Positions 61,301 through 64,000 of a DNA stretch of 64,000 nucleotides are shown here, piece after piece (position 1 is the first letter of the stretch; the number at the start of each line of letters is the position of its first letter). The stretch is taken from NCBI RefSeq assembly GCF_024223415.1, contig NZ_CP100500.1; one strand, 5' to 3'. The position numbers are program-made. Origin of the DNA: Escherichia coli. GTDB taxonomy: Bacteria; Pseudomonadota; Gammaproteobacteria; Enterobacterales; Enterobacteriaceae.

Positions 61301-64000
61301 GTGTCAAAAAATTATGAACTGGATGATGGTTCCGGGCTTATTGTTATGGAGGACACGCAGGCCATTGACACTATCCTTGATGAGCATGCCACTATGCAAT
61401 CGCTGGGAAAGGATACTGGGACGAGAGTGCAGGCAAATGCGGTATATGATCTCGGTCGATCAGATCAGAATGGAAGTATCACGTATTCCTCAAAAGCCAT
61501 CTCTGAAAATATGGTTATCAACAATGGCCGCGCTAACGTCTGGGCTGGCACAATGGTTAACGTGTCAGTCAGAGGGAATGATGGCATTCTTGAGGTCATG
61601 AAGCCGCAAATAAATTATGCACCCGCAATGTTGGTGGGTAAGGTAGTGGTTTCTGAGGGCGCTTCTTTTAGAACGCATGGTGCCGTGGATACCAGCAAAG
61701 CGGACGTTTCGCTCGAAAATAGCGTATGGACCATCATTGCCGATATCACTACGACGAACCAAAACACCCTCCTCAACTTAGCCAACCTTGCGATGTCTGA
61801 CGCAAATGTGATTATGATGGATGAGCCAGTGACTCGTTCATCAGTGACGGCAAGTGCGAAAAATTTCATTACGTTGACCACCAATACCCTGTCGGGAAAC
61901 GGCAATTTTTATATGCGTACCGATATGGCTAATCATCAGAGCGATCAGCTCAACGTCACCGGTCAGGCAACAGGTGATTTCAAAATATTCGTGACGGACA
62001 CCGGTGCCAGCCCGGCAGCAGGAGATAGCCTTACACTGGTAACAACGGGCGGCGGTGATGCTGCATTTACGTTGGGCAATGCCGGAGGTGTTGTTGATAT
62101 CGGTACGTATGAATATACCTTGCTGGATAATGGCAACCATAGCTGGAGTCTGGCAGAGAATCGCGCGCAAATTACCCCTTCAACCACTGATGTGCTGAAT
62201 ATGGCGGCCGCACAACCGCTGGTATTTGATGCAGAACTGGACACCGTGCGTGAGCGTCTTGGTAGCGTAAAAGGCGTTAGTTACGATACGGCGATGTGGA
62301 GTTCGGCAATTAACACCCGCAACAACGTGACCACTGATGCGGGAGCTGGTTTTGAGCAAACATTGACGGGCCTGACGCTCGGTATCGATAGCCGTTTCTC
62401 CCGTGAAGAAAGCAGCACAATTCGCGGCTTGTTCTTTGGTTACTCTCATTCTGATATTGGTTTTGATCGCGGCGGCAAAGGCAATGTCGATAGCTATACC
62501 CTGGGTGCTTATGCCGGTTGGGAGCATCAGAACGGTGCCTATGTTGATGGGGTGGTGAAAGTTGACCGTTTTGCCAACACCATCCATGGCAAGATGAGTA
62601 ATGGGGCAACAGCGTTTGGAGATTACAATAGTAACGGCGCGGGTGCTCATGTTGAGAGCGGGTTCCGTTGGGTTGACGGATTGTGGAGTGTTAGACCCTA
62701 TCTGGCCTTTACCGGCTTTACCACAGATGGTCAGGACTACACGTTATCAAACGGCATGCGCGCGGACGTGGGAAATACCCGGATATTACGCGCTGAAGCG
62801 GGAACGGCGGTAAGCTATCACATGGACCTGCAAAACGGTACGACGCTGGAACCCTGGCTGAAAGCCGCCGTGCGTCAGGAATACGCCGATTCTAACCAGG
62901 TGAAAGTTAATGACGATGGCAAATTTAATAATGATGTGGCTGGAACCAGTGGCGTTTATCAGGCTGGGATAAGGTCATCGTTTACCCCGACGTTAAGCGG
63001 TCATTTGTCAGTCAGCTATGGCAATGGCGCAGGGGTAGAATCGCCGTGGAATACCCAGGCGGGTGTGGTCTGGACGTTCTGATAACAGACAATAAACAGG
63101 CCGTGATGTGTCGCGGTCTGTTTATCGAATTAAATGCAGATATAAAAAAACCAACCTTTACGGTTGGTTTTTTTTGGGATTTTTGGTCCACGAGAGTAGT
63201 TTAATTGAGTGTGTAACCACATGATTTTAAATAATATGCTTGATTCAACTTTTAAATCGTATAACCAAACGTATAACTAAAATCATTTGCTGAAAAAGTG
63301 TACAATTTAAAGGCGAGTTTTCCCAGAGGTTTATTAAACTACGAAAATTTCGTAGTTTGTGAATATATTCCGGCCTGCTGGTTAACAGTCCTCAGATGTG
63401 AGGGATGTAGCCAGCGCAATTTTGCGCTTTGCTTTAATCTCAGTCAGTTATCGCCGTAACCGCTCCGGCTTCTTCCAGTGGTACGTAATTTTTTCTTTCT
63501 CCCGATACAGTTCAACGCGGCGATTGTAGGCCAGCATTTCCAGAACGCGGATCCGTATGTCGCGCATATCCACGCCGTTAAGCTCAATACCGTCACGGCG
63601 CATCACCTCAGCAACCACACGCGCATAATTTTCGGCGGTCACGCTGTCCGGCTGCGTGGCCTGTTCGTCAGCCTGCTGGCTGATTCCGGCAACGCGACGG
63701 ATTAATCGCAGTAGTTCGGCTTCTGTCATTGTGCCCCCATCGTTCTGATAGTCTGGTGTCGTCGGGTCCTTCCTGGAATTATGGCCCGTTACGGGGCGTC
63801 GACCTCGCGGTTTTTCGCTATTTATGAGATTTTTTGAGGGGGTGGTTGTTGTTTAATTGTTTGGTATATCTAATTGATAAGTAAGGTAAAAATAAAATAA
63901 ATACAACAACCTTACGGTGTATTTTGATGTCATTAATGTGAAAAAATTCAATGATATCAAATGGTTTTGTAAAAACATATGGTTGTTGTATCGCGTATTT

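What the first reader, a model, noticed from the sequence alone, without database searches (positions are those of the whole stretch)
63083..64000. Sequence downstream of yejO departs from the expected core: no tRNA-Pro, AT-rich DNA and an unrecognised 93-aa ORF
In K-12 I recall the proL tRNA lying within about 100 bp of the yejO 3' end. Here no tRNA is present in 63083-64000. Instead 63184-63196 (tggtccacgagag) resembles a degenerate reverse complement of a tRNA-Pro 3' acceptor/T-arm end (TGGTCGGCGAGAG...), as an att-site remnant would. It is followed by AT-rich DNA, a GC-normal ORF (63448-63729, minus strand, 93 aa with basic C-terminus, no family recognised) and more AT-rich DNA to the window edge. 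This pattern fits the distal junction of an element integrated at a tRNA gene, with most of the element beyond the window. If so, this is the only part of the window likely to hold uncharacterised accessory content.
Basis: inference. Interest (0 to 1): 0.6.

Follow-up and report, generated by a model that had tools for sequence, protein, structure and literature searches.

The report
Phage-satellite (PICI) end at proL
The DNA after yejO is the far end of a small phage-parasitising island (an EcCICFT073-type PICI) inserted in the tRNA-Pro gene proL, and it carries a lambda-type packaging site; this is a known kind of element, so the finding is correct but ordinary.

Summary
The window has no tRNA. 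Collinearity with K-12 ends at 63188. The sequence at 63184-63196 is the proL 3' end with two bases deleted. A 93-aa minus-strand ORF with normal GC sits between AT-rich stretches.

The interpretation also holds. In E. coli B771 and strain 135, which are 99% identical over this region, the same DNA is one end of an ~11.4-kb element. That element runs attR, ORF93, cos, scaffold-like, decoration and capsid genes, a replication module, an AlpA-like regulator and an integrase, followed by intact proL and yejM. This is an EcCICFT073-type Gram-negative PICI. The deletion in the tRNA fragment is the published attR "damage" seen in PICIs at tRNA-Pro.

- cosQ at 63764-63770.
- cosN at 63794-63805.
- A cosB with three GGTTGTTGT repeats.

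This cosB is 92% identical to the one upstream of a lambdoid prophage's Nu1-type terS. The lineage has lost rppA, so it probably uses the helper's own packaging signal.

ORF93 is a real gene that I found only in satellites. It occurs together with cos in 29% of E. coli genomes, and its function is unknown. The element is a new member of a known kind, and interest is low.

The parts
63092..63174 (.). Chromosomal DNA: two hairpins after the yejO stop codon (63092-63125 and 63144-63174). The second is the terminator-like hairpin shared with the K-12 yejO/proL spacer.
   Evidence: Inverted repeats I2 and I3. Terminator-like site at 63144-63174. Collinear with K-12.
63182..63196 (-). attR core. This is the displaced 3' end of tRNA-Pro(GGG) proL, TTTGGTC--CACGAGAG, with a 2-nt deletion in the acceptor-stem part. 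Collinearity with K-12 ends at 63188.
   Evidence: Intact copy TTTGGTCGGCACGAGAG at the integrase-side junction of B771, JNE181771 and strain 135. Strain 135 has a 4-nt deletion at the same spot. Variable deletions in the attR tRNA fragment are reported for PICIs at tRNA-Pro (PMC10111431).
63197..63332 (.). AT-rich arm of the attachment site, specific to proL-integrating elements. It includes the tandem pair AATCGTATAACC / AAACGTATAACT (63255-63278), which are candidate integrase arm-type sites (inference).
   Evidence: 98% identical in the proL elements of B771 and JNE181771. Absent from the related element of strain ST130, which sits at another chromosomal site and whose homology starts only at 63333. 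Repeat D5. GC 0.32.
63336..63358 (.). Perfect 11+11 palindrome AAACTACGAAA-A-TTTCGTAGTTT. It marks the start of the module shared among PICIs. In JNE181771, two copies flank an extra ~525 bp.
   Evidence: Repeat I8. DNA fold -8.3 kcal/mol, z = -4.9. Duplicated copies in L004.
63448..63729 (-). ORF93, a conserved 93-aa satellite protein of unknown function, with the invariant C-terminal motif Y.WK.PERLR. It is the last gene before the attachment site.
   Evidence: - ORF listed; identical to RefSeq WP_000133433.1 in B771 and strain 135.
- phrog_1561 matched 1-93/93, E 1e-56.
- dN/dS 0.08-0.25 in all pairwise comparisons of the copies in the window, CFT073, JNE181771 and ST130.
- 89% identical to the last gene of EcCICFT073.
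- No tblastn hit in 50,697 phage records.
- AlphaFold model of three helices, pLDDT 71, with no fold match.
63764..63770 (+). cosQ-like heptamer GGGTCCT, 30 nt upstream of the cohesive-end start, the same spacing as in lambda.
   Evidence: Invariant block in the alignment of window, B771, CFT073, JNE181771, lambda (DE3) and phage 21 cos regions. The identity and position of lambda cosQ come from my own knowledge.
63794..63805 (+). cosN, the 12-nt cohesive-end sequence GGGCGTCGACCT. It matches lambda GGGCGGCGACCT at 11 of 12 positions; the G-to-T change creates GTCGAC.
   Evidence: Annotated 'cos site' in phage DE3. The T variant is also in both inverted cos copies of B771 and strain 135.
63806..63840 (+). 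Conserved segment to the right of cosN (CGCGGTTTTTCGCTATTTATGAGATTTTTT). It corresponds to the terminase-binding and IHF I2 stretch annotated in phage 21.
   Evidence: Alignment; phage 21 annotation.
63841..64000 (+). cosB, cut off by the window edge. It holds three GGTTGTTGT elements at 63844 (+), 63903 (-) and 63981 (+), which is 50, 109 and 187 nt from the cosN start. The orientation is +/-/+.
   Evidence: - Three copies in 146 bp, against 0.54 expected in the whole window.
- Phage 21 R3, R2 and R1 lie at +49, +106 and +149.
- 63788-64009 is 92% identical to the DNA directly upstream of a Nu1-family terS in a lambdoid prophage of E. coli O103:H2 12009.

Best explanation
Window 63182-64000 is the attR-side end of an ~11.4-kb phage satellite. 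The satellite is a Gram-negative phage-inducible chromosomal island (PICI) of the EcCICFT073 type, integrated into the 3' end of proL.

**Integration.** It left the intact tRNA next to the integrase, about 11 kb beyond the window. It left a displaced tRNA 3' fragment, shortened by 2 nt, next to yejO.

**What the visible 817 bp carry.**
- The integrase-specific attachment arm.
- The last gene of the island, ORF93.
- One of the island's two converging lambda-type cos sites.

**Proposed life cycle** (inferred from the family, not shown here).
1. A lambdoid helper prophage is induced.
2. The island excises by attL x attR recombination.
3. It replicates from its own RepA/iteron origin.
4. The helper's terminase cuts the concatemers at cosN and packages them into helper-built particles.

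**How this lineage differs from EcCICFT073.** It has lost rppA, the gene that retargets the helper's small terminase to a PICI-specific cosB. Its cosB is instead the helper type: three GGTTGTTGT R-like elements, 92% identical to those upstream of a prophage Nu1-type terS. So it most likely gets packaged by presenting the helper's own recognition site (cos mimicry). The breakpoint of the exchange lies at or near cosN.

**ORF93.** It is a genuine, conserved gene that I found only in satellites. I regard it as accessory: not needed for transfer, and of unknown role.
For: **Shown by tools**
- No tRNA in the window.
- Synteny break and tRNA fragment.
- Full element with integrase and intact proL in 99%-identical relatives and in JNE181771.
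- Gene content matches EcCICFT073. The 68-aa gene, capsid gene, decoration gene and 137-aa gene are 94% identical in DNA. The cos-ORF93 segment is 92% identical.
- The 137-aa protein matches the C-terminal (scaffold) part of a head maturation protease family.
- cosQ/cosN match lambda, phage 21 and DE3.
- GGTTGTTGT occurs three times.
- The cosB is 92% identical to the region upstream of a prophage terS, followed by terL, portal and the other head genes. That TerS belongs to the Nu1 family, phrog_57.
- rppA is reduced to a 22-codon remnant, and no terS is present anywhere in the B771 element.
- ORF93 is under purifying selection.
- The ORF93+cos segment is found in 1594 of 5426 E. coli genomes, and ORF93 is absent from phage records.
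- Three 18-nt iterons lie just downstream of the RepA gene (family D6).

**From papers**
- EcCICFT073 has capsid (c1499) and decoration (c1500) genes, two cos sites and no phage cosB (PMC6092414).
- RppA (c1503) retargets TerS (PMC6739421).
- PICIs at tRNA-Pro show variable deletions in the attR tRNA fragment (PMC10111431).
- An EcCICFT073 c1504-c1507::cat derivative still transfers at about 1e6-1e7 per mL (PMC10460865).
Against: - The window ends at 64000. Integrase, proL and attL are seen only in relatives, none of which is 100% identical.
- Nothing here shows that the island is inducible or packaged.
- Loss of rppA could mean decay rather than a switch of strategy.
- B771 carries a frameshifted Icd-like gene.
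- The cosN G-to-T change is untested.
- The AlpA-like regulator matches Pfam Phage_AlpA only weakly, E 0.004.
- Mapping ORF93 onto c1504-c1507 is my inference from gene order, not read from the original annotation.
- No promoter-like site was found for ORF93.
Confidence: 0.9

Rival explanations
1. It is a PICI of this family but a decaying, no longer transferable copy. Loss of rppA left it without a way to compete for packaging, and the helper-like cosB and second cos are leftovers of recombination.
For: - Only a 22-codon rppA remnant and no terS.
- The Icd-like gene is frameshifted in B771.
- The exact variant at proL is rare: 10 of 5426 genomes cover at least 80% of 62900-64000.
Against: - The same rpp-less module, 95.5% identical, occurs in a PICI at a different chromosomal site in strain ST130. 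That implies spread after the rearrangement.
- All three R-like elements and both cos sites are intact.
- ORF93, int, the capsid genes and the RepA helicase are intact in B771 and strain 135.
- Different attR deletions (2 nt versus 4 nt) suggest independent integrations.
Confidence: 0.2
2. It is the end of a lambdoid prophage, or a prophage remnant, rather than a satellite.
For: - Lambda-type cos.
- cosB 92% identical to a prophage's.
- Lambda E-, D- and Nu3-like genes in relatives.
Against: - The relatives' element is 11.4 kb and has no terminase, portal, tail or lysis genes.
- ORF93 has no tblastn match in 50,697 phage records.
- Gene order and DNA match the experimentally studied PICI EcCICFT073.
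Confidence: 0.03
3. It is a P4-like satellite or a capsid-forming PICI (cf-PICI).
For: - An Icd-like gene and a tRNA-targeting integrase are also common in P4-like elements.
- The presence of a capsid gene recalls cf-PICIs.
Against: - No psu, delta, sid or alpha-primase genes are annotated.
- No portal, protease, terminase or connector genes, which cf-PICIs need to build whole capsids (10.1101/2022.09.08.507074).
- The cos is lambda-type, not P2/P4-type.
Confidence: 0.02

Closest known systems
EcCICFT073, the model Gram-negative PICI of E. coli CFT073 (Fillol-Salom et al. 2018, 2019)
   Same: - Same order at the late end: 68-aa gene, lambda E-like capsid gene, D-like decoration gene, 137-aa gene, two converging lambda-type cos sites, and a 93-aa last gene (89% identical protein).
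- DNA identity is 92-94% over these parts.
   Different: - EcCICFT073 sits next to phoQ, not at proL.
- It has rppA between the two cos sites and a PICI-specific cosB. Here rppA is a 22-codon remnant, and the cosB next to ORF93 is helper-phage type.
- The replication protein is a RepA-family helicase in B771 and strain 135.
proL-integrated PICI of E. coli JNE181771 (NZ_AP027156.1)
   Same: Same integration site and the same attR fragment, with 98% identical attachment arm DNA. It also has ORF93, cos and the first two R-like elements (83% identity over 63333-63912).
   Different: - It encodes its own Nu1-family small terminase (180 aa) in the slot between the cos sites. That protein is 50% identical to the O103:H2 prophage TerS.
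- It has a primase-type replication protein.
- It has an extra ~525 bp between att and ORF93.
[quoted passage not shown]
   Same: The satellite has no terS or rpp, and carries a cos region about 90% identical to that of a lambdoid prophage.
   Different: The element here is integrated in a tRNA gene rather than inside its helper. It keeps a second, inverted cos with the EcCICFT073-type flank. No helper has been identified for this strain.
Lambda / phage 21 cos (cosQ-cosN-cosB with R3, R2 and R1)
   Same: - cosQ heptamer at the same 30-nt spacing, and cosN matching at 11 of 12 positions.
- Three R-like elements in +/-/+ orientation, with the first two at the same distances as in phage 21.
   Different: - The R-element sequence is GGTTGTTGT, not the lambda or phage 21 boxes.
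- No terS follows in the relatives.
- cosN has a G-to-T change.

Membership tests
Gram-negative PICI (criteria of Fillol-Salom et al. 2018, PMC6092414) | Integrase at one end, next to a specific attachment site | tested here: met
   Seen in relatives only. A 413-aa integrase lies next to intact proL in B771, strain 135 and JNE181771. The att repeat is present at both ends. This part is not visible in the window itself.
Gram-negative PICI (criteria of Fillol-Salom et al. 2018, PMC6092414) | Master regulator of AlpA type | tested here: inconclusive
   A 68-aa HTH protein next to int gives only weak Pfam matches: Phage_AlpA E 0.004 and HTH_17 E 0.018.
Gram-negative PICI (criteria of Fillol-Salom et al. 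2018, PMC6092414) | Own replication module followed by an iteron origin | tested here: met
   A RepA-family helicase gene is followed immediately by three 18-nt repeats, TTTT(G/A)CT(C/A)CCCACTTTTT, spaced 83-85 bp apart (D6). Function was not tested.
Gram-negative PICI (criteria of Fillol-Salom et al. 2018, PMC6092414) | Size of about 10-15 kb, with no lysis, tail or terminase genes | tested here: met
   The element is about 11.4 kb (L001 20286-31660). The only morphogenesis genes are capsid, decoration and scaffold-like. Capsid genes are common in Gram-negative PICIs (PMC10111431).
Gram-negative PICI (criteria of Fillol-Salom et al. 2018, PMC6092414) | Induction by, interference with, and high-frequency transfer by a helper phage | not testable with these tools
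   This needs induction and transduction experiments.
Rpp-dependent cos PICIs (Fillol-Salom et al. 2019) | An rpp gene (144-153 aa, wHTH) together with a cosB unlike the helper's | tested here: not met
   tblastn with RppA finds only residues 123-144 in the B771 element. The cosB in the window is 92% identical to a prophage cosB.
Lambda-type cos site | cosQ, cosN and a cosB with repeated R elements, in lambda order and spacing | tested here: met
   Alignment with lambda (DE3) and phage 21. The R-like repeats are significantly enriched. Cleavage and packaging were not tested.
Capsid-forming PICI (cf-PICI) | A complete head gene set (capsid, portal, protease, connectors, terS and terL) | tested here: not met
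   Only capsid, decoration and scaffold-like genes are annotated or detected.

The most novel reading that the evidence does not exclude
ORF93 is an unrecognised working part of lambda-type satellite packaging or establishment, not passive cargo. Several features fit this:
- The protein has no tblastn match in the phage records searched.
- It is under purifying selection.
- It always sits about 35 bp from cosQ.
- The ORF93+cos segment is present in about 29% of E. coli genomes.

If lambda's polarity applies, ORF93 sits on the DNA end that is packaged last and injected first. It could act at cosQ-dependent termination, or act early in a new host. Separately, the slot between the two converging cos sites holds rpp, terS or nothing in different islands. 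It could be a swap site by which these islands change helper specificity through recombination at cosN.
Probability: 0.15. Interest if true: 0.5.

Novelty: new member of a known kind. Interest (0 to 1): 0.22.

Why it matters
For annotating this window, the result places the end of the core chromosome at 63188. It also explains the missing proL: the gene should lie about 11 kb further on, next to an integrase.

The element is a satellite that can move by hijacking lambdoid phages. Relatives carry a PerC-family regulator gene, and the PICI literature links regulators carried by such islands to control of the LEE pathogenicity island.

Two modest points of wider interest:
- Islands of one family carry three different solutions in the same slot between two cos sites: rpp, their own terS, or a helper-type cosB. 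This shows how helper specificity can be exchanged.
- ORF93 is a very common satellite gene with no assigned function.

Neither point changes current understanding of PICIs.

Tried and rejected
**ORF93 function: nothing found.**
- No PDB sequence match; best E 0.07, judged chance.
- No significant Pfam domain; best hit E 0.069.
- No NCBIfam family.
- No PADLOC defence model.
- AlphaFold2 on a 13-sequence alignment gave three helices, pLDDT 71.
- Foldseek against PDB and BFVD gave no match with E below 0.8.

**ORF93 as Rpp or YlcI/YnfO: rejected.**
- It is not Rpp. RppA is the 144-aa gene at L003 2660-3094, next to the ORF93 homologue in CFT073, and the PDB search with ORF93 returned no Rpp or TerS chain.
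- It is not related to the YlcI/YnfO protein that sits left of cos in the O103:H2 prophage, nor to the island's own YlcI/YnfO-like gene.

**Exhaustive search.** The search of 1.84 billion cluster representatives found only 37 clusters, almost all close relatives. The two long hits are a mucin-like repeat protein (P0137) and an ankyrin-repeat protein (P0155). Their scores come from many repeats of a short motif, so I treat them as spurious.

**Other checks.**
- Rfam gave nothing above threshold in 62900-64000.
- The promoter scan found no sigma-70-like site on either strand of 63000-64000, so the ORF93 promoter is unassigned.
- The generic direct-repeat search did not find the att repeat because of the 2-nt deletion. 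Direct alignment found it.
- Lateral transduction from the integrated cos was considered and dropped. cos phages are reported not to do it (PMC12829572).
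Full report
**1. The observation**

The window is E. coli chromosome running ccmH, narP (minus strand), then yejO (60491-63082, intact, 863 aa). ARAGORN finds no tRNA or tmRNA anywhere in the 64 kb.

Aligning the K-12 spacer with the window shows near-identity through the two hairpins after yejO and up to ...GGGATTTTTGGTC. 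K-12 then reads GGCACGAGAGGATTTGAACC..., the reverse complement of proL. The window reads CACGAGAGTAGTTTAATTGAG... and shares nothing further. So 63184-63196 (TGGTCCACGAGAG) is the proL 3' end TGGTCGGCACGAGAG with two bases missing.

The composition is as described. GC is 0.32 at 63100-63399, 0.59 over the ORF and 0.30 at 63800-63999. The ORF is at 63448-63729 on the minus strand and encodes 93 aa.

**2. What lies beyond the window**

A search of 5426 complete E. coli genomes with 62900-64000 finds the yejO part in nearly all of them. The whole stretch appears in only 10, three of them at 98.8-99.0% identity: B771, strain 135 and GF4.

In B771 the stretch is one end of an ~11.4-kb insert. Its order, starting from yejO, is:
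- The tRNA fragment.
- ORF93 (WP_000133433.1, identical to the window's protein).
- A 660-bp gap.
- A 137-aa gene, a head decoration gene, a major capsid gene and a 68-aa gene.
- ProQ/FinO-like and PerC-family genes.
- An SSB gene, a RepA-family helicase gene and a DUF4222 gene.
- An Icd-like gene (frameshifted) and a YlcI/YnfO-like gene.
- A small HTH regulator gene and an integrase gene.
- Intact tRNA-Pro, then yejM, yejL and yejK.

Strain 135 has the same element with the same integrase and the same ORF93 protein. JNE181771 has a related element at the same site.

The integrase-side junction reads ...GGGCGATTTGGTCGGCACGAGAGGATTTGAACC. The repeat shared by the two junctions is therefore TTTGGTC(GG)CACGAGAG.

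At most 4825 of 5426 genomes have the uninterrupted yejM-proL-yejO junction. The site is therefore disrupted in roughly one genome in ten.

**3. What kind of element it is**

The late half of the B771 element is 94% identical in DNA to the end of EcCICFT073. The cos-ORF93 part is 92% identical. EcCICFT073 is the experimentally studied Gram-negative PICI of strain CFT073.

CFT073 shows the same order: 68-aa gene, capsid, decoration, 137-aa gene, a 144-aa gene, then a 93-aa gene as the last gene before the chromosome (phoQ). The papers name the capsid and decoration genes c1499 and c1500. [quoted passage not shown]

Against the published PICI criteria, the relatives meet:
- An integrase next to a specific attachment site.
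- A replication gene followed by iterons (family D6).
- Small size.
- Absence of terminase, tail and lysis genes.

The AlpA-type regulator is only weakly supported (Pfam E 0.004). Induction and transfer cannot be tested here.

The 137-aa protein matches the C-terminal part of a head maturation protease family (phrog_53, positions 494-566 of 583). In lambda this is where the nested scaffold Nu3 lies (my knowledge). The island therefore carries E-, D- and Nu3-like genes. Capsid genes are reported in 21 of 29 reference Gram-negative PICIs and are not needed for transfer (PMC10111431).

**4. The degenerate tRNA fragment**

The window, B771 and JNE181771 have TGGTC--CACGAGAG. Strain 135 has TGG----CACGAGAG. 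The deletions differ in length but lie at the same place in the acceptor-stem part of the fragment.

[quoted passage not shown] In their set, prophages do not show it. They suggest it could damage the tRNA gene on excision (PMC10111431).

The arm next to the fragment (63197-63332) is 98% identical in the JNE181771 proL element. It is absent from the related island of strain ST130, which sits near thiM and shares DNA only from 63333 onward. I therefore read 63197-63332 as the integrase-specific attachment arm. The tandem CGTATAAC pair would be candidate arm-type sites; that part is inference.

**5. The second AT-rich block is a cos site**

blastn against phage records matches 63759-63857 to the cos regions of lambda, phage 21, DE3 (annotated 'cos site') and other lambdoid phages.

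The alignment gives:
- GGGTCCT at 63764-63770, 30 nt before the cohesive-end start, as in lambda (cosQ; its identity is from my knowledge).
- GGGCGTCGACCT at 63794-63805, against lambda GGGCGGCGACCT.
- The conserved CGCGGTTTTTCGCTATTTATGA... segment. In phage 21 this is annotated as terminase binding and IHF site I2.

Downstream, GGTTGTTGT occurs at 63844 (+), 63903 (-) and 63981 (+). Only 0.54 copies are expected in the whole window. These sit 50, 109 and 187 nt from the cosN start. Phage 21's annotated R3, R2 and R1 are at +49, +106 and +149.

The 165 bp from 63836 to the window edge occur in 298 of 5426 genomes. In E. coli O103:H2 12009 they lie in a lambdoid prophage. There they sit just after the lysis genes and directly upstream of terS, terL, head-tail joining, portal, protease, decoration and capsid genes. 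Identity is 92% from cosN through the third repeat. The 25 bp to the left of cosN are of the PICI type. That TerS belongs to the lambda Nu1 family, phrog_57. So the cosB in the window is a helper-phage cosB.

**6. The slot between the two cos sites**

In relatives, a second cos lies in inverted orientation about 450 bp further on (L001 21385-21462, beyond the window). The two cosB sides therefore converge.
- In CFT073, the two converging cos sites flank rppA.
- In JNE181771, they flank a Nu1-family terS that is 50% identical to the O103:H2 prophage TerS.
- In B771 and strain 135, there is no gene. tblastn with RppA finds only its last 22 codons, and tblastn with the JNE TerS finds nothing.

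Next to the second cos, the B771 segment also contains the ~190-bp flank that in CFT073 lies beside the ORF93-proximal cos.

My reading is that this lineage replaced the rpp-dependent recognition by the helper's own cosB, through recombination at or near cosN. The helper terminase would then recognise it directly. This is inference. A comparable case is described for the helper-embedded PICI 11capE, which lacks terS and shares 258 bp of cos region at 90% identity with its helper (PMC10111431).

Both cos copies in this lineage carry the same G-to-T change in cosN. Its effect is unknown.

**7. ORF93**
- **Family:** it matches phrog_1561 over its full length (E 1e-56; function unknown). Its C-terminal half matches phrog_7271.
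- **No named family:** there is no significant Pfam, NCBIfam, PDB-sequence or PADLOC match.
- **Not in phages:** tblastn against 50,697 phage records finds nothing.
- **Common in E. coli:** the ORF93+cos segment is found in 1594 of 5426 genomes, up to six copies per genome.
- **Narrow family:** the word-indexed search returned 994 proteins, and the 120 listed are all at least 89% identical to the query. The exhaustive search of 1.84 billion representatives found only 37 clusters.
- **Conserved residues:** 19 positions are invariant, including Y.WK.PERLR at the C-terminus.
- **Selection:** pairwise dN/dS among four copies is 0.08-0.25, so this is a real protein-coding gene.
- **Structure:** AlphaFold2 predicts three helices, with mean pLDDT 71 and 83-89 for residues 31-70. 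Foldseek finds nothing significant in PDB or BFVD.

In CFT073 the homologue is the only annotated gene between rppA (c1503) and phoQ. An EcCICFT073 derivative with c1504-c1507 replaced by cat still transfers at about 1e6-1e7 per mL (PMC10460865). Among the genes after the origin, only c1503 blocked lambda when overexpressed (PMC6739421). I infer that ORF93 is dispensable for transfer and is not the interference factor. The mapping to c1504-c1507 rests on gene order only.

**8. Verdict**

The region is the attR end of an EcCICFT073-type PICI at proL. The attachment-site anatomy, the cos site and the gene order all match described features of that family. The element is a new member of a known kind, with a packaging module that lacks rpp and uses a helper-type cosB.

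Two things remain open. One is the function of ORF93. The other is whether the window's own copy is complete, because only 817 bp of it are visible. Interest is low.

Noticed in passing
window 60491-63082: yejO is an intact 863-aa ORF here. It is broken in every compared genome: IS5-split pseudogene in K-12, IS2 insertion in B771, internal stop in JNE181771 and frameshift in strain 135.
   Followed up: no
L001 21385-21462 (B771; would be window ~64283-64360, beyond the edge): A second lambda-type cos lies in inverted orientation, so the two cosB sides converge on a ~450-bp segment. CFT073 and JNE181771 have the same converging pair around rppA and terS respectively.
   Followed up: partly
L001 21136-21201: A 22-codon remnant of the rppA 3' end (73% identical in protein) lies between the two cos sites of the rpp-less island.
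   Followed up: yes
window 63794-63805; L001 20896 and 21420; L009 13893 and 14417: cosN carries G-to-T at position 6 (GGGCGTCGACCT, which creates GTCGAC) in both inverted cos copies of this lineage. CFT073, JNE181771, ST130, the O103:H2 prophage, lambda (DE3) and phage 21 have G. This suggests copy correction between the two sites.
   Followed up: partly
L009 ~13280-13295 versus window 63184-63196: The deletion in the attR tRNA fragment is 4 nt in strain 135 and 2 nt in the window, B771 and JNE181771, although the islands are nearly identical.
   Followed up: partly
L004 14460-14985 (JNE181771): About 525 bp of extra DNA lies between att and ORF93, bounded by two copies of the AAACTACGAAAATTTCGTAGTTT palindrome. 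No gene is annotated there and no convincing ORF was found. It may be a small insertion or a cargo slot.
   Followed up: partly
L001 21493-21906 (137-aa gene next to cos): The protein matches only the C-terminal 70 or so positions of a head maturation protease family (phrog_53), where lambda's nested scaffold Nu3 lies. The island seems to carry capsid, decoration and scaffold genes but no protease or portal gene.
   Followed up: partly
L009 20554-22341 versus L001 28613-28859: The 'Icd-like' gene is a 595-aa ORF in strain 135 but a short frameshifted fragment in B771. That is far longer than a cell-division-inhibitor peptide.
   Followed up: no
L001 25464-25649: Three 18-nt repeats, TTTT(G/A)CT(C/A)CCCACTTTTT, are spaced 83-85 bp apart directly downstream of the RepA-family helicase gene. 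They are the likely replication-origin iterons.
   Followed up: no
L001 31542-31648 and 29712-29744: Repeated (A)TCCGGTG motifs lie on the integrase-side arm next to proL and again upstream of the HTH regulator gene. They are candidate integrase or regulator binding sites.
   Followed up: no
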